Virus record (IMG/VR): IMGVR_UViG_2671181094_000006
DNA: 18,188 nt
Strand: one strand, 5' to 3'
DNA from: a virus
Taxonomy: Duplodnaviria; Heunggongvirae; Uroviricota; Caudoviricetes
Numbering within the stretch: position 1 is the stretch's first letter; each line of letters starts with the position of its first letter. Of the stretch, positions 1 through 18,188 are shown piece after piece. A model generated the notes under the pieces. That model made no database searches and was not told the DNA's origin. It saw only the letters and a program-made list of their open reading frames with translations. The position numbers were made by a program, and so were the translations under genes.

Positions 1-537
1 TTACTCGTCCAGCAGAATCACTTTGCCGATATACGGCAGATGACGGTAACGCTGTGCGTAATCAATGCCGTAACCCACCACAAACTCATCCGGGATCGAG
101 AAACCGATAAATTCTACCGGGACGTTCACTTCACGACGGGACGGTTTATCCAGCAGCGTACAAATCGCCAGCGACTTCGGTTCGCGCAGGCTTAAGATCT
201 CACGCACTTTCGACAGTGTATTCCCCGAGTCGATGATATCTTCAACAATCAGCACGTCCTTGCCACGGATATCTTCATCCAGATCTTTGAGGATTTTCAC
301 ATCACGGGTGGTGGACATGCCGCTACCGTAGCTGGAGGCGGTCATAAAGTCGACTTCATGAGATACCTGAACTTCACGGCACAGGTCCGCCATAAACATA
401 AATGAGCCACGCAGCAGACCAACCAGCACCATATCGCTGCCGCTGTCTTTGTAACGCTCAGTAATCTGACGACCCAGTTCGGCGATACGCGCTTTAATCT
501 CCGCTTCGGGGATCATTACTTCTACAATATGTTTCAT
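1..537 (-). CDS. hpt: Hypoxanthine phosphoribosyltransferase
   Basis: Full-length 178-aa ORF. From memory it is essentially identical to E. coli Hpt ([30 protein letters not shown] ... GKVILLDE). It carries the PRPP-binding loop [13 protein letters not shown]. Confidence 0.97.
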
Positions 538-716
538 AATCTATATATCTCACTGATTTTAATCAGTTAAATTCAATCTCACACTATGCAATTCAGTAAA
601 TATTGATACACCGATTGATATACGGATTATCGCACAGAGCCGAAATCACGCATAAGCATGAGCACATTCCAAAGAGCTGGGGATTATAGCAAGGAAATAT
701 TGTAGGGGTAATGAAT

Positions 717-746
717 ACCATGCCTGCTTACGATTGCAGGCATGGT
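717..746 (-). terminator. Hairpin 8 nt downstream of the 755-1294 gene; possible intrinsic terminator
   Basis: Perfect 11-bp stem ACCATGCCTGC (717-727) / GCAGGCATGGT (736-746) with an 8-nt loop. The minus-strand trailing sequence AUUCAUUA is only weakly U-rich. Confidence 0.45.
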
Positions 747-754
747 GCAGACAT

Positions 755-1294
755 TTAATCCATGAGGCTGTTCAGTGCTTGCTCAACACTTTCATACTTC
801 TGCGTAGTTGGTTTACCTGTTGCGTTTTTAACCATTGAGAACAAAACCACCTCGCCGCTTAGGTCTGAAACACCAGTTGACTCTAAATACGGCAATAATT
901 CTTTCTCATAGAACTCAATTTCTTTTAGTAGCATTTCATCAGGCCTACCAGCCCAAGAATTACGCTCCGGGGACTTTCCACGTTTTATAGAGTAATTAAG
1001 CGAAAATTCTTTATTTTCATATTTGAACTCAACTGCACCATCACAACCAAAGAAGCTTCCTGTGAGTTTTGAGAAATCAATGAGAGTATCAAGGCCGCCG
1101 TTATAAGTGGCTTTCAACTTAGGAGTCTGGCCTGTAATTGTAAATCCTTTAGATTTAAAAAATTCCAAAACATCTTTCTGAATAGCGGTAGCAGCATCAT
1201 TTATTTGTTTATTCAACAACTCGCGCCGAGGAGCGCTGAATTCTTCAATTTTTGCTTTAAGATCTTGTAGTTTCATTTTGTTAGCTAATGACAT
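755..1294 (-). CDS. Hypothetical protein (179 aa), AT-rich orphan at the hpt-proximal island end
   Basis: The ORF in the track is 755-1369. I chose the ATG at 1294 (MSLANKMKLQDLK...) because AAGGA lies 5-6 nt upstream. It is visibly more AT-rich than its neighbours. I recognise no family. Confidence 0.7.
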   Translation of the reverse strand: MSLANKMKLQDLKAKIEEFSAPRRELLNKQINDAATAIQKDVLEFFKSKGFTITGQTPKLKATYNGGLDTLIDFSKLTGSFFGCDGAVEFKYENKEFSLNYSIKRGKSPERNSWAGRPDEMLLKEIEFYEKELLPYLESTGVSDLSGEVVLFSMVKNATGKPTTQKYESVEQALNSLMD

Positions 1295-1547
1295 ATAAAT
1301 TCCTTGTATATCCAGAGTAATAGCTGTGCATAGTCTATGCGATTTCATCCTACTGCTATAAAACATCAAATTCCATAAACATAACCATCAATTAGTTATA
1401 AATGCCTCGATGTTGAATGCGTCCCCCATACTCAACCGGGAATGGGCTGAGCACATTTATCATGACTGTGACCACCAGCCATGACGGCGGATTGTCATGA
1501 ATTACTAATGTATGATAGCACTGTCATACAATAAGGAATCTCCCACT

Positions 1548-1907
1548 ATGAGACTAACCAGCCGCAAAAAGACGATACTCAGCTACTTCGAACCGGATAA
1601 CCGCGACTGGGTGACGGGTGAGATCGGCGCACCTCCCCTTGATGTATCCGGCGTGGCGTACCTGCTGTATGGGACAGGCCTCGAAGACAACCGGCACTGG
1701 CTCGAATCCACCAGACGAACGCTGGAAGCAATGGTGAAAGATGGGTTGCTGGAGAGGTACCGGAGCAGGGAGGCGCGGAGTATCGTTATGGGCGGCGAGA
1801 CGACCGCTACCGTTGTCCGTTACGGCCTGCCGGGTACCGTTTCAGTGGTACGCGATACGGGAGGTGCAGACGGCACGATAGAAGGCGAATATGTGCGGGT
1901 CGTTTAA
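1548..1907 (+). CDS. Winged-helix DNA-binding protein, module A (119 aa); paralog of 5930-6289
   Basis: The ATG at 1548 follows AAGGAA. The layout is H1 KKTILSYF, H2 VSGVAYLL, H3 STRRTLEAMVKDGLLER, wing ATVVRYGLPG. It is roughly 70 percent identical by eye to the 5930-6289 product. Confidence 0.8.
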   Translation: MRLTSRKKTILSYFEPDNRDWVTGEIGAPPLDVSGVAYLLYGTGLEDNRHWLESTRRTLEAMVKDGLLERYRSREARSIVMGGETTATVVRYGLPGTVSVVRDTGGADGTIEGEYVRVV

Positions 1908-2201: not shown

Positions 2202-2789
2202 TTAATCGGTATCGTCGGCCAGGGCATACAGCAACGAAGGGATCACTCTCCGCATGGCTGTTTCTTCGGTTTCATCGCTCATGAGAGTCAGGGTGTAATC
2301 CCGGCACTCGTAAATCACATCATATGCAGACAGGCCGAACGCGCCGCCCGCAATGATCTGCCCAATTTCAACATCTGGCGTTTCAACAATCGACAGCCGG
2401 TAGCCGCCGAACGTCACAGGAGGGTTATAAGGCCCTTCGCTTACAAACAGCTCTACGGCCTTTGCAGCAACCTGGGCTCGTTCGTCCGGGTCCACCCCGG
2501 ACACCTTACCGGCACCTGACACCATGATGCGCTTAATCTCCGCAACACTCATTTCCACCAGCGTATACCCCTGCACCTCACCAGCTGGAGCAGGCTTGGT
2601 TTTACCCCTGGCATTCTTCGTACGCGGGTCACTGGCGCTGCGGTATCGTGCCAGATAAGTATCACAGGCCTCCTGGTCAATCTTCCCGTCAACCCGCGCC
2701 GGAAATCCTTCATGACTCTCCCAGTTATACAGTGCCTGCCGGCTCATTCCGGCATGTTTTGCGTACTGGCTGACGCTCATTAGTGACAT
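2202..2789 (-). CDS. Nu1-like (small-terminase-type) HTH protein; candidate packaging-redirection (Rpp-like) or small terminase subunit
   Basis: The ATG at 2789 has AGGAG 7 nt upstream. The N-terminus MSVSQYAKHAGMSRQALYNW...FP resembles the lambda Nu1 N-terminal winged HTH (KKQLADIFGASIRTIQNWQEQGMP). A repeat field lies immediately upstream, as cosB does for Nu1. Confidence 0.7.
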   Translation of the reverse strand: MSLMSVSQYAKHAGMSRQALYNWESHEGFPARVDGKIDQEACDTYLARYRSASDPRTKNARGKTKPAPAGEVQGYTLVEMSVAEIKRIMVSGAGKVSGVDPDERAQVAAKAVELFVSEGPYNPPVTFGGYRLSIVETPDVEIGQIIAGGAFGLSAYDVIYECRDYTLTLMSDETEETAMRRVIPSLLYALADDTD

Positions 2790-3137: not shown

Positions 3138-3563
3138 TTAATGAACTTCCGGCATCACAGGCCATTCAATATCTGGGGCATCATCAGGGTTAACACGACT
3201 GAGCAGAACGGAGTATTTTTCCCAGTGTTCCAGTCGCGTTTTTTCATCCAAGGTAGCCATTCCGTATTTCACAGCACGCGCTAAAGGGACGATAACGTCC
3301 TCAGCCTTTGTACGTTGCCGCTCTTTTTCAGCCCCAGCCAGCCTGGATAACTGTGCTTTGGTCTGTGGAGGTACATCGACCCACGAGGGCAAGCCATCAG
3401 CCCCTACCCCCCTTTGCTTACCTTCTGGTGGAACCCTGGTGAACTCGTGAAAAACGTTATCACTGACTGCTATAAGGTCCGCTGGTAGAGAATTGTTGTC
3501 CCGATAAGCTGGTAATAATTCATCAGGGTAAAAACACGCCGTTGACGCACTAAAATGATACAT
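3138..3563 (-). CDS. Tail fibre assembly chaperone (Tfa family)
   Basis: The start MYHFSASTACFYP is typical of Tfa proteins. The C-terminus HWEKYSVLLSRVNPDDAPDIEWPVMP matches the conserved Tfa tail (W.KYRVLLNRVD...APDIEWP). The start lies 2 nt after the fibre gene stop. Confidence 0.85.
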   Translation of the reverse strand: MYHFSASTACFYPDELLPAYRDNNSLPADLIAVSDNVFHEFTRVPPEGKQRGVGADGLPSWVDVPPQTKAQLSRLAGAEKERQRTKAEDVIVPLARAVKYGMATLDEKTRLEHWEKYSVLLSRVNPDDAPDIEWPVMPEVH

Positions 3564-3565
3564 GA

Positions 3566-4099
3566 CTATTCCCCTATAGCTAACCATCCAAAATTATCTG
3601 CATTACCCGAACTGCCGCTGATCCAGCCATATGCACGGAAACCGGAATTGGAATCATTGGTTACGGACACGTAACGATTTCCATCTGCGTACTTCGTAGC
3701 AACAATAGCAATAGCCCGCTTAGGAAAAGGTATCGGATACTGAACATTACCTGATGGTGAATTAATAGTGGCAGTTCCCATTTGAACAATAATATTTTTC
3801 TTTTCACCTGATGGTGTTCGGGTAGGAATAATACAGTAACCCTGTGAAGTAAGGGCACCTACGATGGGTTCAGATAGAAGGGCGGTGATCCTCAACTCAT
3901 CAATAACTTCGTTTAACTGACCATCATTTTCAGGCTCAAGCTGGCGGCCAGAACCCTCTACCACGCCCACCATCTCACGCTGCCAGGTATTAAAAATATC
4001 GGCAACAAGAATTGTTGGTGATACCCCATTAGCAACATTACCTTGTGTAAATTCCCCATTACTATCAGCAGTATCAGTGACTGAACTTATCTTACGCAT
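3566..4099 (-). CDS. Short tail fibre / receptor-binding tip protein (177 aa)
   Basis: The N-terminal motif FTQGNVANGVSPTILVADIFNTWQREMVGVVEGSG..L.....QL resembles the conserved tail-fibre motif (T...A.WLN..QEEL.NVI...G). The C-terminal GYCIIP...IIVQMG...VQYPIPFP...FGWLAIGE resembles gp53-like tail-fibre C-terminal domains. A Tfa gene follows directly. Confidence 0.8.
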   Translation of the reverse strand: MRKISSVTDTADSNGEFTQGNVANGVSPTILVADIFNTWQREMVGVVEGSGRQLEPENDGQLNEVIDELRITALLSEPIVGALTSQGYCIIPTRTPSGEKKNIIVQMGTATINSPSGNVQYPIPFPKRAIAIVATKYADGNRYVSVTNDSNSGFRAYGWISGSSGNADNFGWLAIGE

Positions 4100-5704: not shown

Positions 5705-5929
5705 TTCCTGACCTCCTGATACTGGTTAAACGTACATACTTCTTCTGTATGGGGTTAACTTATGATCAATAAAATAAATCGTCAAGATAAAATATTTTAA
5801 TTAAAAGGGTTGCGGACTACATGAGGGGGTACTGATTGCGTTACAAAATGGAGGGGAAAGTTAAGTAGCCATTCCTCACCGCTTCTTATTGTATGATAGT
5901 GCTATCCCACAATAAGGAACCTGCCAGCC

Positions 5930-6289
5930 ATGAGAATGACCAGCCGCAAAAAAGAGATACTCAGCTACTTTGAACCGGATAACCGCGATTGGGTAACAGG
6001 TGAGATTGGTGCGCCGCCGTTCGATGTGTCGGGTGTGGCCTACCTGCTTCATGGCATGGGATCATTCGGTAAACGCCACCAGCTCGAATCAACCCGGCGT
6101 ACGCTCGAAAGCATGGTTGCCGGTGGACTGCTTGAGCGAATGACAGTGTATGAATCCCGTCAGGTACGGCGCGGCGGTGAAACCAGCGCAACAGTCGTGC
6201 GCTACGGTTTACCGGGACAGTGTGCCGTTGTGCGAGATAGTGGCGGCGCTGATAACGCAATACCAGGTGAATACATGCGGGTCAGTTAA
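5930..6289 (+). CDS. Winged-helix DNA-binding protein, module B (119 aa); paralog of 1548-1907
   Basis: MRMTSRKKEILSYFEPDNRDWVTGEIGAPPFDVSGVAYLLHG... The ~40-bp leader and operator (TGTATGATAG..CACAATAAGGAA) are conserved with copy A. Confidence 0.8.
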   Translation: MRMTSRKKEILSYFEPDNRDWVTGEIGAPPFDVSGVAYLLHGMGSFGKRHQLESTRRTLESMVAGGLLERMTVYESRQVRRGGETSATVVRYGLPGQCAVVRDSGGADNAIPGEYMRVS

Positions 6290-9567: not shown

Positions 9568-12345
9568 TTATTGCTCTGGCTGGCTTTCCTCCCCATCCGG
9601 CAGGAATTGCAAAACGTAAACGTTAATCTGCCTCCCCTGAATGCGCGGGCTTTTCCTCTGAAATTTTTTTCCGTCTGCCGAAGGGGTAAGCATCCCCGAT
9701 TCTTTCAGGACGCGGGCCACCTGCTGCCTGTTAAACCCCTTAGCAATATCCTTATCGAAAGTGTCGGGGAACGTGTAAAACGTTATCGGTGAATCGTCAT
9801 GATTTCCGCGCTGCCTGTATCCAGCCAGATTATGAATCGGCAGGCTGGCGGGGTCGTAAGGCAGCGGCGCGAATCGACTCAGGCCATAGGCATTTAAAAA
9901 TGCCTCCGCCTGCTCGATGATCTGCTGGTGCTCTTTGTTCCCCGTGCCGAACTCTTTTAGCCATGCGTTATAGGCGTGCTGTATCGCATCCCGGCACGTT
10001 TGAGCATCCCAGCCAGTAACCACGCCACCCATCAGTAAAGCGGCCTCCAGAATGGCAAATCTTGCCCCTACACGGTGAACCTGTTCCCCATAGTCGGCAG
10101 GAATTAGACTGCGCCAGCGGGCCTCACACTCACGAACGGCATCAATCGCCTGTTGCTGGTGGTCTGAAAGCCATCTGATCCACTCCCTCCCGGCAGCGCC
10201 ATGATGGTTCTGGTAAGCGTCTTTCAGCGCGTCGGCGTGGTCTCTCCCTGTCTGGTACTCATGAAAGCGCACCGCCTTACTCAGCGGGATATTCAGCAGT
10301 CGCACCAGTTGCCCCGCTTTTGTCTTGCGTCCTGCGGTGGAGATGAACGTTTCTAAATCCATTTCCCCGGTGCTGATTGCCACGGTGCGCCAGCGTTTCA
10401 GATCCCGGTTGCCTCCTTCCTTTGCTCCCTGCAATTTCCCCACGCCGTTAAACAGGGCATAGGCAGACTGAGCAACGCTTATCGGGTCTGCGCCCTGTCC
10501 GACTTCATCCAGTGGCATCAGCCCGTCATTGTGGGCGGCGGCCTCGTTTATCAGCCCCAGCGCCGTTCCGTACCACGTCAGGCGCAAGGCATCAGGGTTG
10601 CCATAAAGACTGCTCGCCACGTTCTGCGTGGTTGTTTTCCCGGCGCTCGATTGCTCGTAAAAATGAATCCCGAAGCCGTCACGCTCCGCCAGCCCGATTA
10701 ACGGTGCTGCAAGTGCGGCGGCAATGCCTGTCATCATCGCGTAGTTACCGTATGCCAGACGCGCAACACTCTTACGCCAGCTCTCTGAGGTTCCCGCCAC
10801 GGTGTACCCGGCAGCGGCAGAACTGCGGCCACTGAATAAAACGGGTTGTGCAGGTGCGCCGATAATCTCCCCGTCCGGCATGATGTATGCCCCGCACTGC
10901 CAGCCAGTAGCGTGAGCAACACGCCACAATTCACGTGAGCCGCTACGCTGTAACCAGTCAGCCAGAATCGCCCGCAAGCTGCTTTTGGTGGTGACGTTAA
11001 CCCCGCCCGCTTTCAGGGTGCGCCAGCCTTCGCGCTCCCCGATATCAGCCAGGGGGATAGCCGCTGTTGTCGGTATGCCTGCGCCAAAGGCCAGCCAGCG
11101 TAATATCAGATACTGATCCTTGTCGTCCCGCCCGGTGCCGATAACGTCCATCGGTGAGGCCAGCCAGCTTTCATTGTTGATAATCTCGCCGCTTTCCTTG
11201 TCCACTTTAGGCGTGATCCAGTAAACGCCATCTTTGCGGCTCTCAATGCGGGGTTTTAGCGGGTCTTTCTCTGGCTGGTCAGTTTTACCGCCCTCAATGG
11301 CCTGTAGTTGTGGTTTCACGCATTCCCCCTGCGGCTGGTACATCGAATCATTAAACGCAGCCGTAGCGACTTCCAGCCCGTGTTGCTGGTGGTAGTCGTT
11401 CCAGTCAGCTTTGCTGTCAGTCGGTGGCAGCGATACCCAGCCAGCCACGGATAAAGCCGCTTTCTCTGCGGCCTCCTTCCCGATGTTGGTGGCTCCGGTT
11501 TCGGAGGCTGCTGTAGGGTGGTCGTTATCTGCGGCGATAATAATTTGCGACTGCGGGTGTTTCCGGCGCATTACTCCGGCAACGTGGATCAGGTTCCCGG
11601 CGTCAATTGCCGCCACTGTGAGCGCGTCAGGCCGCATCTGGTGAACGGACAGGGCGGTAGCCAGCCCCTCGGCAATCACGACGCTTTGAGGCCGTTCCAG
11701 CGCGTTTACGGCGTAATATGCCCCGCGCTTTGCCGATCCCTTAATGAGTCGCTTTTCTCCCTGCGGGGTGATGGTCTGCGCGGCTGTGACTGCGCCGGAT
11801 TCATCCACCAGCTCCAGCAATAACGAACCATCGGGCATAAGCGGGTATTTAAACCCGGTCAGCCCTTTTGATTGCAGGTACTCAGATTCTCCCTGTATGG
11901 ATCTCAGGCGCATTCCGGTATACAGACGGGCAAACGTAGCCCTTCGCTGATCTGCGTCCTCTGCTGCCTGTTTCTGGCGCTCCTGCTCACGCTGCTGGCG
12001 GTCTGCGGCTAACTGCCTCTGTCTCTGGCTGGCAGCGTCTGGTGCTGATTCTGCGGCCCGGTAATCAATACCCAGCACATCAGCGGCAAGCTGTGCCGCC
12101 TCCGTGGTGTCGCAGTTGTTCACCTTCTTAATCAGGTCTAAGCCATCGCCCGCGCCGCACTGGTTGCAGATAAAGCTGCCGCGCCCGTTGTCGTCGAATC
12201 TGAAACGGTCTTTCCCACCACATGCAGGGCAGGGGGCATGGCGGCGCGATGAATCAGGAACGTCGATAGACAATCCGGCCAGCACATAAGGCCATCGCCC
12301 TGCTGCGGCGCTGGTCACTTCGCGGATAAGGTCGATATTACGCAT
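9568..12345 (-). CDS. Primase-helicase replication protein (zinc-binding domain + Toprim + P-loop NTPase), P4-alpha / PICI Pri-Rep type
   Basis: 925 aa. Zinc motif CPACGGKDRFRF...CNQCG. Toprim residues VVIAEGLATALSV and IIIAADNDH. Walker A SSAGKTT and Walker B LMPLDEV. GGGAGGT SD. Confidence 0.95.
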   Translation of the reverse strand: MRNIDLIREVTSAAAGRWPYVLAGLSIDVPDSSRRHAPCPACGGKDRFRFDDNGRGSFICNQCGAGDGLDLIKKVNNCDTTEAAQLAADVLGIDYRAAESAPDAASQRQRQLAADRQQREQERQKQAAEDADQRRATFARLYTGMRLRSIQGESEYLQSKGLTGFKYPLMPDGSLLLELVDESGAVTAAQTITPQGEKRLIKGSAKRGAYYAVNALERPQSVVIAEGLATALSVHQMRPDALTVAAIDAGNLIHVAGVMRRKHPQSQIIIAADNDHPTAASETGATNIGKEAAEKAALSVAGWVSLPPTDSKADWNDYHQQHGLEVATAAFNDSMYQPQGECVKPQLQAIEGGKTDQPEKDPLKPRIESRKDGVYWITPKVDKESGEIINNESWLASPMDVIGTGRDDKDQYLILRWLAFGAGIPTTAAIPLADIGEREGWRTLKAGGVNVTTKSSLRAILADWLQRSGSRELWRVAHATGWQCGAYIMPDGEIIGAPAQPVLFSGRSSAAAGYTVAGTSESWRKSVARLAYGNYAMMTGIAAALAAPLIGLAERDGFGIHFYEQSSAGKTTTQNVASSLYGNPDALRLTWYGTALGLINEAAAHNDGLMPLDEVGQGADPISVAQSAYALFNGVGKLQGAKEGGNRDLKRWRTVAISTGEMDLETFISTAGRKTKAGQLVRLLNIPLSKAVRFHEYQTGRDHADALKDAYQNHHGAAGREWIRWLSDHQQQAIDAVRECEARWRSLIPADYGEQVHRVGARFAILEAALLMGGVVTGWDAQTCRDAIQHAYNAWLKEFGTGNKEHQQIIEQAEAFLNAYGLSRFAPLPYDPASLPIHNLAGYRQRGNHDDSPITFYTFPDTFDKDIAKGFNRQQVARVLKESGMLTPSADGKKFQRKSPRIQGRQINVYVLQFLPDGEESQPEQ

Positions 12346-16029: not shown

Positions 16030-16869
16030 TTACTCATCGACAGAGAAAGGGATATCAACATTATCAACCCATCCCTGAACAGCCCTTCCTGAGGGTGCCA
16101 CGATGTTAAGATTTTTAAAATCTTTGCTTATATCACTGTCATTTTTATCAAGAAATCGGCGCGGATTTTCTGCCACCTCGTTTCCATAATGAATGCGCAA
16201 AAGCGACTTTATAAACTGAGCACGTTTATTTATGGTTTTTGCTGAGTGAGCTTCATCGGGATTTTTTGACGGTTCTATCTTTTCTTTTTCACCATTAATA
16301 TAACTTGGAAATTCATCACCATCATTACATTTTTTAATTGAAACAAAATCAGATTTAGAAATATAGAGATCTTCAACCTCGAAATTAAGAAATTCATCCG
16401 TTTCAAAAGAAACAAACATCTTGCTTTCTGCCGAAAACCAAAAATCATCCAAGCTTGGTTGGAAACTGTAAAGTGCGGTCATTCCGTATGCATTTTGCGG
16501 TAAAGCCCATAATCCGCTAAATGAGCAGGGATAAAACCTTTCTTCGCGTGGGAGGTTATCTAAATCTATATCTTCATATCTCATTAATGAGACAACTCTG
16601 GAAAATTTATCGATGGTATATTTTTCTTTAAAAAGTTCATCTCTGAGACGTTGAGCAGATTCAAATTGTTCCTCTGTGAATCTCTTTAAATTCCTTTCTT
16701 CTTTTTCTACACCATCACCAATAAAACGGACATATCCGCGGCCTTCCTCAAAAGAAACATACAACTTGATTGCTCCAATCGAAGCCCAATGAAGCAAATC
16801 TTCAACTTTACATCCGAGCAACTCAGCAGCGCGAACTACTGAGTAATATTCCCGTAATGGCATTCCCAT
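16030..16869 (-). CDS. AT-rich hypothetical protein (279 aa) with an N-terminal MerR/excisionase-like HTH
   Basis: The ATG at 16869 has a GAGGGTG SD. The N-terminus is YYSVVRAAELLGCKVEDLLHWASIGAIKLYV. I do not recognise the rest. It is visibly AT-rich relative to int and alpA on either side. Confidence 0.78.
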   Translation of the reverse strand: MGMPLREYYSVVRAAELLGCKVEDLLHWASIGAIKLYVSFEEGRGYVRFIGDGVEKEERNLKRFTEEQFESAQRLRDELFKEKYTIDKFSRVVSLMRYEDIDLDNLPREERFYPCSFSGLWALPQNAYGMTALYSFQPSLDDFWFSAESKMFVSFETDEFLNFEVEDLYISKSDFVSIKKCNDGDEFPSYINGEKEKIEPSKNPDEAHSAKTINKRAQFIKSLLRIHYGNEVAENPRRFLDKNDSDISKDFKNLNIVAPSGRAVQGWVDNVDIPFSVDE

Positions 16870-16961: not shown

Positions 16962-18188
16962 TTAATCTCTATTCGCTACAGGTAACAGAACCACATTTTT
17001 ATGATTACCCGCAAGAAGTTCTAAACGTTCATGCCATTTGTTCAGCGCATCCAGCTTCTCCGGCAAGTACAGGCTACGGTTATATATAGCCATGACGCCC
17101 GGTAGAGCATGACCCAGCAGCAACTCTACAATATGCGGTGCTATGCCCATATTGTTTAACCCCGTGGAGAACGTGCGCCGCAGATCGTGAAGTGTCCACG
17201 GCTCGTTATGATGGAAATCTTTAAAAAGCCGTCGCCCTTTCAAAGATACAGCTTGCCGGGTGCGCTCTTCTCCCAGCAGCAGGCCTGTTTTACCCGTCTC
17301 GCGTTTTAACTCTTCCAGCCACGGGCGTATAGCTTCAGGGATTGATCTCACGATTTTCTCGCGGGTTTTGCTGTGCTCTTTCGGGACTGTCCAAATCCAC
17401 GAGGTAAAATCCCACTCCGACCATCGAGAGAGGCGAACTTCCATCGTTCGAGCGCCAAACAGCACCAGCATTTTGAGAAGACGTGAATAATACGGCTGCT
17501 GATCATCGCTGTCTGTGCAGCGCCATACATCGGCCAGCTCGCTATCTGACAATACGCGGTCACGTTGACCGGATGGCTGGCCTACATCCTGAATGGTGAG
17601 AAAGGCTAGAGCATCACTGGCGGCATAGCGGCGAACCTTGCAGAAGCGTAACGCCTGTTTAGAAATCTGGAACATGCGGCCGGCGGTCATGGGTTTGGTC
17701 AGATTTATTTCATCAAAACAGGCCACCCAATGACGGGTTTCACATCTGGTGAGGGGATAACGACCAAGGCGCGGGTAAATATGCTTGCGTAGCTGTGCCC
17801 TTACCAGCTCCTCATCGCTGCGCTTTCTCCTGGCGTAGTTCACCAGCCAGTATTCGAGAGCATCCTGTACTGTCACAGGTTTAAGCGTTTCTTCGGTGCT
17901 CAGTTCAAGCTCTGTTTTTGGATCAAGACCACCAGCCAGCCACTGGCGACACTTTTCCCGCTTTTCTCTCGCCGCTTTTAGCGACAAATCCGGGTAACGG
18001 CCAAGCGTTAAACGTTCGAGTTTGCTACCCCTTCCGCCCAATCGGTAAGCGAACACCCAGCTAACGTTACCTTGCTTCGAAACCTTAATGCTCAGTCCTT
18101 CACCATCGGCAATCATGATCGGTGCTTCACGCTCAGAACCCTGCAGCGCTTTTAGCTTTTTGTCGCTCAGTTTGTTTGTACCAGCCAT
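16962..18188 (-). CDS. P4-type tyrosine integrase (full length; the start codon is the last three bases of the window)
   Basis: N-terminal arm-type domain (LSDKKLKAL...GEGLSIKVSKQGNVSWVFAYRLGG...LGRYPDLSLKAAREK). Catalytic residues ARTMEVRLSRW, HDLRRT, LLGH, and Y in AIYNRS. Confidence 0.95.
   Translation of the reverse strand: MAGTNKLSDKKLKALQGSEREAPIMIADGEGLSIKVSKQGNVSWVFAYRLGGRGSKLERLTLGRYPDLSLKAAREKREKCRQWLAGGLDPKTELELSTEETLKPVTVQDALEYWLVNYARRKRSDEELVRAQLRKHIYPRLGRYPLTRCETRHWVACFDEINLTKPMTAGRMFQISKQALRFCKVRRYAASDALAFLTIQDVGQPSGQRDRVLSDSELADVWRCTDSDDQQPYYSRLLKMLVLFGARTMEVRLSRWSEWDFTSWIWTVPKEHSKTREKIVRSIPEAIRPWLEELKRETGKTGLLLGEERTRQAVSLKGRRLFKDFHHNEPWTLHDLRRTFSTGLNNMGIAPHIVELLLGHALPGVMAIYNRSLYLPEKLDALNKWHERLELLAGNHKNVVLLPVANRD

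What the first reader, a model, noticed from the sequence alone, without database searches (positions are those of the whole stretch)
755..1294. AT-rich orphan gene at the distal island end, a typical slot for satellite accessory or defence cargo
Seen: a 179-aa ORF with a good SD that is visibly much more AT-rich than the flanking island genes. It is the last gene before the chromosomal hpt promoter region. An 11-bp perfect hairpin follows it. It has its own divergent promoter region (1295-1547), which contains the TCATGAC/GTCATGA inverted repeats (1460-1466 and 1494-1500). I recognise no family. Established: PICI and P4-like satellites concentrate variable anti-phage genes at island extremities. 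Inference: it is a candidate single-gene defence, abortive-infection or exclusion factor acquired separately from the island core.
Basis: partly seen in the sequence, partly recalled or inferred. Interest (0 to 1): 0.5.

Follow-up and report, generated by a model that had tools for sequence, protein, structure and literature searches.

The report
Swappable orphan gene cassette ending a phage satellite
The AT-rich 179-codon gene is real and sits in a self-contained ~700-bp cassette that hops between the accessory slots of phage satellites and prophages, which makes it a reasonable but untested candidate for a new anti-phage gene; its protein resembles nothing with a known function.

Summary
The window has a 179-aa ORF (755-1294, minus strand) with an AAGGA Shine-Dalgarno. 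Its GC is 38%, against 44-59% for most island genes. It is the last island gene before the att core (602-620) and hpt, and an 11-bp hairpin follows it. The 7-bp TCATGAC repeat is no more than chance.

The gene sits in a ~700-bp cassette (666-1365). Two cf-PICIs at the same hpt site, 95.6% identical in terL, differ by exactly this cassette. About 460 E. coli genomes carry related islands, but only 3 carry the gene.

Relatives are rare: 41 clusters among 1.84 billion proteins. They occupy other accessory slots:
- after terL in cf-PICIs
- the end of non-capsid satellites
- between gpI and gpJ in lambdoid prophages
- between the lysis and terminase genes
- after zot in a Vibrio filamentous prophage

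In the sampled contexts they are AT-rich relative to the host element, and nearly all carry their own terminator. They diverge much faster than their neighbours.

No Pfam, NCBIfam, PADLOC or PDB match was found. A confident AlphaFold model has no credible structural relative. It is not a Tai homologue.

Cargo status is well supported. An anti-phage function is plausible but unproven.

The parts
602..620 (.). att core of the island (ATTGATACACCGATTGATA), roughly 65-85 nt upstream of the hpt start codon
   Evidence: A 19-bp direct repeat is found on the hpt side and again beside int in the full-length related locus L001.
621..665 (.). att-proximal island flank, shared with an unrelated cf-PICI inserted at the same site
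   Evidence: Window 540-665 matches E. coli QL57EC (L012) at 92.9%, and similarity stops at 665.
666..1365 (-). Mobile cassette of about 700 bp: upstream control block, 179-aa gene and hairpin
   Evidence: cf-PICI L022 carries a 699-nt segment (9930-10628) holding the homologous gene. cf-PICI L012, 95.6% identical over terL, has 275 nt with a 63-aa ORF in its place. The window limits follow from the same breakpoints.
717..746 (-). Hairpin 8 nt after the stop codon; probable transcription terminator insulating hpt from the island
   Evidence: 11-bp perfect arms; -22.1 kcal/mol, z = -5.0. Homologous loci L022 and L016 keep a hairpin with changed, still complementary stems. More distant homologues have textbook stem-plus-T-run terminators. 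The window copy lacks a T-run, so termination is inferred.
755..1294 (-). 179-aa protein-coding gene ('X'): soluble, non-enzymatic-looking alpha/beta protein of an uncharacterised family (PHROG 14564)
   Evidence: Translation. PHROG 14564 E = 4.8e-22, full length, function unknown. No Pfam, NCBIfam or PADLOC match. dN/dS is 0.08-0.23. AlphaFold2 pLDDT 92.7, pTM 0.83.
1301..1305 (-). Shine-Dalgarno AAGGA, 6 nt before the ATG
   Evidence: Read directly from the sequence. The AGG core is invariant in the five aligned cassettes.
1328..1340 (.). Palindrome GCATAGACTATGC (5-bp arms GCATA/TATGC invariant); candidate operator, or stem at the 5' end of the mRNA
   Evidence: It is conserved in five cassettes from different elements, while synonymous sites of the gene are saturated. 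Any function is inferred.
1347..1352 (-). Candidate -10 hexamer TAGGAT (TAnnAT in all five cassettes), with only a weak -35
   Evidence: Alignment A5. The consensus promoter scan did not call it, so it is an inference.
1365..1376 (-). ATGGAATTTGAT motif at the 5' edge of the cassette; in cf-PICIs this is the last codons and stop of terL (..G-I-stop)
   Evidence: In L022 and L016 terL ends ..FNG(I/V)* at exactly this motif. The window, L013 and L024 keep the motif without a terL gene in front of it. This suggests the cassette came from a terL-X junction. A similar ATGGAATTT motif also precedes the distant homologue in L027, so it may be a promoter element instead.
1377..1505 (.).
   Evidence: There is no similarity to related islands lacking the cassette. 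The repeat is at chance level.
1506..1907 (+). Divergent backbone gene: promoter-like TGTATGATAG block (1506-1547) plus a 119-aa ORF (1548-1907). It is not part of the cassette.
   Evidence: A paralogue at 5930-6289 is 74% identical in protein, and the shared upstream sequence starts at 1506. In L021 the 119-aa gene occurs without X. In cf-PICIs X occurs without it.

Best explanation
Window 666-1365 is a self-contained 'moron'-type cassette. It has a conserved ~70-nt control region, a 179-aa gene and a hairpin that probably terminates transcription. It occupies the 3'-terminal accessory slot of a PICI-like phage satellite inserted upstream of hpt.

Shown: it is exchangeable cargo. It is present or absent between otherwise near-identical islands. 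Its relatives sit in other well-known accessory slots of satellites and prophages. It is compositionally foreign, and it diverges much faster than the structural and packaging genes around it. The protein is small, soluble and near-neutral. It has no conserved catalytic-type residue set and no detectable relative of known function.

Inferred: it is transcribed from its own promoter while the element is integrated. It acts as a single-protein factor that binds a target stoichiometrically rather than catalysing a reaction. The most likely role is exclusion of competing phages. It recurs next to the lambdoid tail-tip genes gpI and gpJ, which makes tail-tip assembly one concrete candidate target.

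My confidence is about 0.9 for 'mobile accessory cassette', about 0.4-0.45 for 'anti-phage factor', and about 0.15 for 'tail-tip target'.
For: Cassette swap: L022 and L012 are 95.6% identical over 2.7 kb of terL and 87.5% identical from att to hpt. They differ by 699 nt (gene X) versus 275 nt (a 63-aa ORF).

Slot variability: a KilA-N gene fills the slot in L020 and nothing fills it in L021. Of 5426 E. coli genomes, 462 have the backbone 119-aa relative but only 3 have X.

Same protein, different islands: the identical protein is terminal in islands with four different primase types and in different chromosomal backgrounds.

Other contexts of the family:
- last gene of cf-PICIs beside rpoD and in an IMG/VR cf-PICI
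- last gene of non-capsid satellites in Yersinia and Morganella
- between gpI and gpJ in two lambdoid prophages, and directly after gpI on a third, partial contig
- between the lysis and terminase genes
- after zot in a Vibrio filamentous prophage

Moron hallmarks: the gene is 34-41% GC against 47-58% in the flanks, and most sampled contexts have their own terminator.

Control region: it is about 80% identical across five cassettes although synonymous sites are saturated.

Fast divergence: X is 30-40% identical where flanking gpI, K, L and the J N-terminus are 70-84%. X is 38-77% identical where TerL is 80-95%.

Literature: He et al. 2024 (PMC11364771) state that PICIs encode immune systems at their 5' or 3' ends, and that phage moron loci upstream of the packaging module carry the Tai defence. 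Rousset et al. 2022 (PMC9122126) report antiviral hotspots in phages and satellites (abstract seen).

Against: Accessory slots also carry counter-defence, virulence and regulatory genes. No strong sigma-70 consensus was found upstream, so expression in the integrated state is not shown. Overall dN/dS is low. The fast divergence could therefore be allele replacement rather than an arms race. The gpI adjacency in cf-PICIs may simply reflect that both genes lie in the 3' accessory region.
Confidence: 0.42

Rival explanations
1. Counter-defence protein. X inhibits a host immune system, as an Acr, an anti-restriction protein or the anti-Tai protein Ati does. This would help the satellite or prophage establish itself or spread.
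For: It is small, soluble, shows no enzymatic motif and diverges fast. It is carried by elements that must enter new hosts. A palindrome lies at the predicted transcription start, as in Aca-controlled acr promoters. An HTH gene lies next to X in the Xenorhabdus locus, and a possible winged-helix gene lies beside it in the window. The anti-Tai gene sits in the same kind of phage hotspot.
Against: Most cassettes (L013, L016, L022) have no adjacent regulator gene. X is not acidic enough for a DNA mimic, with pI 4.7-7.0 across the family. In lambdoid prophages it sits deep in the late tail operon, which is poorly timed for an entry function unless its own promoter is constitutive.
Confidence: 0.15
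2. Tail-module accessory serving the element's own transfer. X would be a chaperone or modifier of the tail tip (gpI/gpJ), or a host-range factor that satellites use on stolen helper tails.
For: X lies between gpI and gpJ in two lambdoid prophages, and directly after gpI on a third, partial contig. Two cf-PICIs carry a gpI homologue, 65-87% identical to the phage ones, plus a 116-aa ORF just before X. The J C-termini differ between the phages whose X alleles differ. The window island itself carries tail-fibre and tail-fibre-assembly genes.
Against: An intrinsic terminator separates X from J, and X is compositionally foreign. X also occurs in a filamentous prophage with no tail, in a lysis-terminase slot, and in cf-PICIs and satellites without any tail gene. 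It is absent from most related elements.
Confidence: 0.12
3. Lysogenic-conversion or host-physiology factor unrelated to phage conflict, for example a regulator-binding or stress-related protein that benefits the carrier cell.
For: It has classic moron architecture and sits after zot, the position where CTXphi carries ctxAB (own knowledge). The weak fold resemblances are to adaptor or chaperone-like proteins such as frataxin/CyaY, SycT and YbjN.
Against: There is no signal peptide-like or membrane segment (read; GRAVY values). No toxin, effector or regulator domain was found. The family is very rare and patchy, which fits conflict genes better than a general fitness trait.
Confidence: 0.15
4. 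Core satellite function at the island end, such as excision or integration control, or packaging-site recognition.
For: In every satellite context examined X is the last gene, reads towards att, and would lie just upstream of int in the circular form.
Against: It is absent from a 95.6% identical sister cf-PICI and from about 459 of 462 E. coli genomes with the related backbone. It is present in prophages at sites far from att.
Confidence: 0.03

Closest known systems
Accessory ('immune') regions at the 5' and 3' ends of PICIs and cf-PICIs (Fillol-Salom et al. 2022, as summarised in He et al. 2024, PMC11364771)
   Same: It lies at the 3' end opposite int. The content varies between otherwise similar islands. 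It is a single small gene with its own control region and hairpin.
   Different: No anti-phage activity has been shown, and the gene is not in PADLOC v2. The window island itself has no capsid module. It carries a TerS-like gene and tail-fibre genes.
Tai (tail assembly inhibition) single-gene defence, e.g. TaiEcA = phi80 orf63 (He et al. 2024, PMC11364771)
   Same: It is a small single gene spread over PICIs, other satellites and prophage moron loci, and it is very divergent between alleles. The X family is also found in the lysis-to-terminase slot and next to the gene for the Tai target, gpJ.
   Different: There is no sequence or profile similarity: hhalign probability 0.9%. The TaiEcA sequence looks compositionally unlike X by eye (no structure was predicted for it), whereas X is modelled as an alpha/beta sandwich. 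The mechanism of X is untested.
Classical lambdoid morons (lom, bor, cor, HK97 gp15; Hendrix-type definition, own knowledge)
   Same: AT-rich composition, its own terminator inside or beside late operons, and presence or absence between related genomes.
   Different: Those examples are envelope proteins. X has no signal peptide or membrane segment (read).
P2/P4 antiviral hotspots (Rousset et al. 2022, PMC9122126)
   Same: The concept of a fixed genomic slot in phages and satellites that holds interchangeable conflict genes.
   Different: The window island shows no P4 hallmark domain (Psu, Sid, Ogr/Delta) in Pfam scans. The slot here is at the att end rather than beside cos.
Frataxin/CyaY-like and type III chaperone/YbjN-like alpha/beta sandwiches
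   Different: Only half of X aligns, at 5-12% identity, and no sequence-profile signal appears. This is a generic fold resemblance, not evidence of homology or function.

Membership tests
Moron (autonomous extra gene in a phage or satellite genome) | Nucleotide composition differs from the surrounding element | tested here: met
   38% GC against 44-59% in the window. 34-41% against 47-58% in nine other contexts.
Moron (autonomous extra gene in a phage or satellite genome) | Present or absent between otherwise closely related genomes, with sharp breakpoints | tested here: met
   L022 versus L012: 699 nt replaced by 275 nt between terL and the att flank.
Moron (autonomous extra gene in a phage or satellite genome) | Own transcription terminator | tested here: met
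   Stable hairpin with z = -5.0, kept with compensatory changes. Canonical stem-plus-T-run terminators follow the distant homologues. In the window copy the T-run is weak.
Moron (autonomous extra gene in a phage or satellite genome) | Own promoter, active in the integrated state | tested here: inconclusive
   The upstream block is about 80% conserved with a TAnnAT hexamer and a palindrome. No consensus sigma-70 site was called, and there are no expression data.
PICI/cf-PICI terminal immune region | Location at the island end opposite the integrase, with variable content among related islands | tested here: met
PICI/cf-PICI terminal immune region | Gene confers resistance to phages | not testable with these tools
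   This needs plaque and burst assays.
Known anti-phage defence families (PADLOC-DB v2.0.0) | Significant match to a defence-system HMM | tested here: not met
   Zero families at E up to 10 for X and at E up to 0.01 for the distant member P0027.
Tai (tail assembly inhibition) | Homology to Tai proteins (TaiEcA, phi80 orf63) | tested here: not met
   hhalign of family alignment A3 against TaiEcA gives probability 0.9%, E = 0.061. tblastn of X against all phage records, including phi80, finds nothing.
Tai (tail assembly inhibition) | Blocks tail assembly; escape mutations map to the central tail fibre J | not testable with these tools
   The only evidence is circumstantial: adjacency to gpI and gpJ.
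P4-like satellite (host element) | Psu, Sid and Delta/Ogr hallmark genes | tested here: not met
   Pfam scans of 20 island ORFs found none of these domains. They found int, Bro-N, a Zn-ribbon/Toprim/DUF927 primase, SSB, PerC, PRiA4_ORF3, a tail-fibre C-terminus and a tail-fibre assembly protein.
Frataxin/CyaY fold family | Significant structural and sequence similarity over the whole domain | tested here: not met

The most novel reading that the evidence does not exclude
X founds a previously unrecognised single-protein anti-phage family with a fold that has no known relative. It would act by binding the tail-tip assembly proteins (gpI/gpJ) of competing or helper siphophages. That would make it a functional analogue of Tai that arose independently, traded as a 700-bp cassette between cf-PICIs, non-capsid satellites, lambdoid prophages and even filamentous prophages.
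Probability: 0.15. Interest if true: 0.65.

Novelty: new member of a known kind. Interest (0 to 1): 0.42.

Why it matters
Accessory slots of satellites and prophages have repeatedly yielded new immune systems. This family has the profile of such a find. It is absent from Pfam, NCBIfam and PADLOC and has no structural relative. It is rare and confined to mobile elements of Enterobacterales and Vibrionales. It diverges two to three times faster than its neighbours.

It also has precisely defined cassette limits and a conserved control region, so it can be cloned and tested directly.

If it is a defence or counter-defence gene, it adds a new protein family. It would also be an example of one cassette shared by tailed-phage, filamentous-phage and satellite genomes. 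If it has no phage phenotype, it is an ordinary orphan moron.

Tried and rejected
Sequence families. Pfam, NCBIfam and PADLOC gave nothing. Pfam on 34 family members gave only scattered noise. A PDB profile search gave nothing below E = 0.5.

Sequenced phages. tblastn of X and of two distant members found no phage isolate carrying the family. Plasmids hold only two distant copies, in Photobacterium and Vibrio.

GTDB species representatives. The pattern scan found no copy. Alignments A3 and A4 were too divergent to scan with.

Rfam. There are no RNA families in 500-2200.

Literature. The accession WP_053289900 appears in no paper, and searches on satellites gave nothing specific.

Hypotheses rejected:
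- Tai homologue.
- DNA-mimic anti-restriction protein, because pI is near neutral.
- Secreted or membrane exclusion protein, because no hydrophobic segment is visible in the sequence and the family is hydrophilic overall.
- The TCATGAC repeats as an operator, because they are at chance level and outside the cassette.
- The 119-aa divergent gene as an obligatory partner, because each occurs without the other.
- A conserved neighbouring partner gene, because none is shared across contexts.
- Covariation within the upstream palindrome, because the variable positions fall in its centre and are uninformative.

Full report
**1. Observation**

The window starts at the stop codon of hpt (1-537, minus strand; Pfam Pribosyltran). 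It ends at the start codon of a tyrosine integrase (16962-18188, minus). In a closely related full-length locus (E. coli 1368KP, L001) the same element lies between hpt and gcd. A 19-bp direct repeat, ATTGATACACCGATTGATA, occurs on the hpt side (window 602-620) and again beside int. The island's right boundary is therefore at about 602-620.

The reported ORF is real.
- The ATG is at 1294-1292, the TAA at 757-755, and AAGGA lies six nt upstream.
- The mechanical ORF list extends it to a TTG at 1369. All 18 close homologues nevertheless begin with the same MSL... residues.
- Pairwise dN/dS against four homologous cassettes is 0.08-0.23, with synonymous differences of 56-77%. It is a coding gene under purifying selection.
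- It is 38.1% GC, against 44-59% for the other island genes and 50% for hpt. The single exception is another AT-rich ORF next to int.

The 11-bp perfect hairpin (717-727 and 736-746) is confirmed. It is far beyond chance, at about 3 in 10,000 shuffles. It is stable as RNA, at -22.1 kcal/mol with z = -5.0. The simple terminator scan does not call it because the T-run is weak.

The 7-bp TCATGAC/GTCATGA repeats exist. At least one such pair is expected in half of shuffled sequences. They also lie in a spacer with no counterpart in related islands.

**2. What the thing is: a cassette with defined limits**

The decisive comparison is between two capsid-forming PICIs inserted at the same hpt att site. 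One is L022, an IMG/VR contig. The other is L012, from E. coli QL57EC.
- They are 95.6% identical across 2.7 kb up to the terL stop codon.
- They are 87.5% identical from the att flank into hpt.
- Between those points, L022 has 699 nt carrying a 77%-identical homologue of the gene. L012 has 275 nt carrying an unrelated 63-aa ORF.

Transferred to the window, the same breakpoints give a cassette at 666-1365. Similarity of the window to L012 indeed stops at 665.

Within the cassette, the ~70 nt upstream of the ATG are about 80% identical in five cassettes from E. coli-type, Citrobacter, Edwardsiella and metagenomic elements. The synonymous sites of the gene are saturated over the same comparisons. 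The upstream block is therefore constrained. It contains the following elements:
- an invariant AGG Shine-Dalgarno core
- a palindrome, GCATA-N3-TATGC (window 1328-1340)
- a TAnnAT hexamer (1347-1352) placed so that transcription would start at the palindrome
- the motif ATGG(A/T)ATTT(G/A)AT at the far edge (1365-1376)

In cf-PICIs L022 and L016 this last motif is the final codons and stop of terL (..FNG(I/V)*). The window, L013 and L024 keep it although no terL precedes it. The simplest reading is that the cassette spread from a terL-X junction and took the last bases of terL with it. This is an inference. A similar ATGGAATTT also precedes a very distant homologue in a lambdoid prophage, so it may be a promoter element instead.

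The hairpin downstream is retained in L022 and L016 with different, still complementary stems. In distant homologues canonical stem-plus-T-run terminators replace it. hpt lies in the same orientation about 180 nt further on. The hairpin would therefore also shield hpt from island transcription (inference).

**3. Is it variable cargo?**

Yes.
- The identical 179-aa protein is the last gene next to hpt in islands whose interiors differ. Four primase types occur: DUF927; D5_N/Pox_D5; Zn-ribbon-Toprim-D5_N; AAA_25.
- A second variable slot in these islands holds tail-fibre genes, an SLT-domain protein or small ORFs.
- The chromosomal backgrounds also differ. The source name is 'MULTISPECIES ... 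Enterobacteriaceae'.

Close relatives of the island backbone lack it.
- In E. coli 2022CK-00450 (L020) the same 195-aa/63-aa block, 95% identical, is followed by a KilA-N gene next to dinD.
- In ET479 (L021) the island ends with the 119-aa gene.
- Among 5426 complete E. coli genomes, 462 have a relative of the backbone 119-aa gene, but only 3 have the cassette.

**4. The wider family**

A word-indexed search of 5.8 billion proteins found 19 clusters, all about 179 aa and all from Enterobacterales. A full HMM scan of 1.84 billion representatives with the family profile found 41 hits. Apart from short fragments and one repetitive 927-aa protein, these are single-domain proteins of 170-198 aa. 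Named sources are Morganella, Xenorhabdus, Photobacterium, Vibrio fluvialis and Leclercia. Two distant copies are on Photobacterium and Vibrio plasmids.

PHROG 14564 (function unknown) matches over the full length. No sequenced phage isolate carries the family. No GTDB species-representative genome was found to carry it either.

Genomic contexts:
- last gene after terL in cf-PICIs beside rpoD/mug in Citrobacter, Edwardsiella and Morganella, and in a metagenomic cf-PICI
- last gene of non-capsid satellites like the window's in Yersinia and Morganella
- between tail genes gpI and gpJ in two lambdoid prophages, and directly after gpI on a third, partial contig
- between the lysis genes and the terminase in another lambdoid prophage
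- after zot in a Vibrio fluvialis filamentous prophage
- next to an integrase fragment in Xenorhabdus

In every context whose DNA was examined the gene is 34-41% GC inside elements of 47-58% GC. In all but one (L013) its own hairpin or terminator follows directly. This is the classical moron pattern.

**5. Evolutionary behaviour**

At the gpI-gpJ slot the flanking tail proteins are 70-84% identical between the prophages. The X alleles are only 30-40% identical. Among cf-PICIs, TerL is 80-95% identical while X is 38-77% identical. Either the slot is repeatedly refilled with distant alleles or X evolves much faster than its neighbours. Both patterns are typical of genes involved in conflict, but neither proves it.

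No neighbouring gene is shared across all contexts, so X behaves as a single-gene unit. One association does recur. Two cf-PICIs (L024, L034) carry a lambda gpI homologue (PHROG 32, PF06805) plus a 116-aa ORF directly before X. That homologue is 65-87% identical to the prophage gpI proteins. X therefore lies next to gpI in five independent elements.

**6. The protein**

AlphaFold2 with the 18-sequence alignment gives a confident model, with pLDDT 92.7 and pTM 0.83. In order, it has:
- a 46-residue N-terminal helix
- a five-stranded antiparallel sheet
- a second helix (118-140)
- two more strands
- a short C-terminal helix

Across 34 divergent members the nearly invariant positions are M1, L9, L12, R23, Y129, P135, L137 and G147. 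The motifs 'FYE' and 'SDLxGxY' are conserved. No His/Cys/Asp/Glu constellation suggests catalysis. The proteins are hydrophilic, with pI 4.7-7.0, and have no hydrophobic segment. I infer a binding protein rather than an enzyme, membrane protein or DNA mimic.

**7. Mechanism: best guess and rivals**

Shown: a mobile, compositionally foreign, fast-diverging single-gene cassette confined to accessory slots of satellites and prophages.

Established background: PICIs carry immune systems at their 5' or 3' ends. Phage moron loci upstream of the packaging module, and P4 hotspots, carry defence genes such as Tai (He et al. 2024, PMC11364771; Rousset et al. 2022, PMC9122126, abstract).

Inferred: X is expressed from its own promoter in the integrated state. 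It excludes competing phages by binding a phage or host protein (about 0.4-0.45). The repeated gpI/gpJ neighbourhood makes tail-tip assembly a concrete candidate target (about 0.15).

I tested the obvious family assignment. TaiEcA (phi80 orf63) shows no relationship to the X family, with hhalign probability 0.9%. X may work like Tai but is not a Tai.

Rivals:
- counter-defence (0.15)
- a tail accessory serving the element's own transfer (0.12)
- a host-physiology conversion factor (0.15)
- a core satellite function (0.03; contradicted by the presence/absence data)

**8. Comparison and novelty**

The kind of object is well known: a moron or accessory cassette in a satellite or prophage hotspot. 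The protein family is uncharacterised. It is absent from Pfam, NCBIfam and PADLOC and has no structural relative. I rate it a new member of a known kind.

Interest is moderate. It is a well-delimited, directly testable candidate, but nothing in the evidence is surprising for the field and no function is shown.

**9. Limits**

- There are no expression or phenotype data.
- AFDB-wide structure search and current DefenseFinder/HHpred libraries were not available.
- Contexts of many metagenomic family members sit on contigs too short to read.
- The promoter assignment is by eye on an alignment.

Noticed in passing
window 16030-16869 (minus strand): A second AT-rich orphan ORF (279 aa, 37% GC) sits directly next to the integrase, at the opposite (5') accessory end of the island. 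It has no Pfam, PHROG or PADLOC match. It is a second candidate cargo gene.
   Followed up: partly
window 3138-4099 (minus strand); compare L002-L011: The satellite has no capsid genes but carries a tail-fibre C-terminal domain protein (Gp53-like_C, 177 aa) and a tail-fibre assembly protein (Caudo_TAP, 149 aa). These lie in an internal variable slot between the 155-aa and 195-aa genes. In sister islands this slot holds a 608-aa SLT-domain protein or small ORFs. The tail-fibre genes might retarget helper particles.
   Followed up: partly
window 1506-1907 and 5887-6289 (plus strand): Two paralogous 119-aa genes are 74% identical in protein. They share the same promoter-like block (TTGTATGATAG...AATAAGGAA), and each is divergent from a leftward gene set. 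They have no Pfam or PHROG match. The sequence looks like a possible winged-helix regulator by eye only.
   Followed up: partly
window 2202-2789 (minus strand): The N-terminus of a 195-aa protein resembles small terminase subunits (PHROG 57, E = 8e-8). It is 70% conserved in Yersinia and Morganella satellites. It is probably the island's packaging-redirection protein.
   Followed up: partly
L024 8943-9889 and L034 8857-9827: Two capsid-forming PICIs, supposedly tail-less, carry a lambda gpI-type tail assembly protein (PHROG 32, PF06805) plus a 116-aa ORF with a faint tail-chaperone signal after terL. The gpI-type protein is 65-87% identical to prophage gpI.
   Followed up: partly
L027 8875-9273 and L036 4863-5285: In the lambdoid prophages that carry X between gpI and gpJ, an extra ORF also sits between gpK and gpI. 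In L027 it is an AT-rich 132-aa lipoprotein gene (PHROG 890). In L036 it is an uncharacterised 140-aa ORF. The tail-tip operon therefore holds two extra slots.
   Followed up: no
L012 (E. coli QL57EC) and window 540-665: The hpt-gcd intergenic att site is used by at least two structurally different satellite types: the non-capsid island of the window and a cf-PICI. They share the att-proximal 45 nt.
   Followed up: partly
window 9568-12345 (minus strand): A 925-aa replication protein combines a primase zinc ribbon, Toprim and DUF927. Sister islands with the same terminal block use three other primase/helicase architectures, which shows modular exchange of the replication module.
   Followed up: no
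L025 10731-11596: In the Vibrio fluvialis filamentous prophage the X homologue is followed by a 164-aa orphan and a YafO-family toxin gene. This is a small accessory cluster after zot.
   Followed up: no
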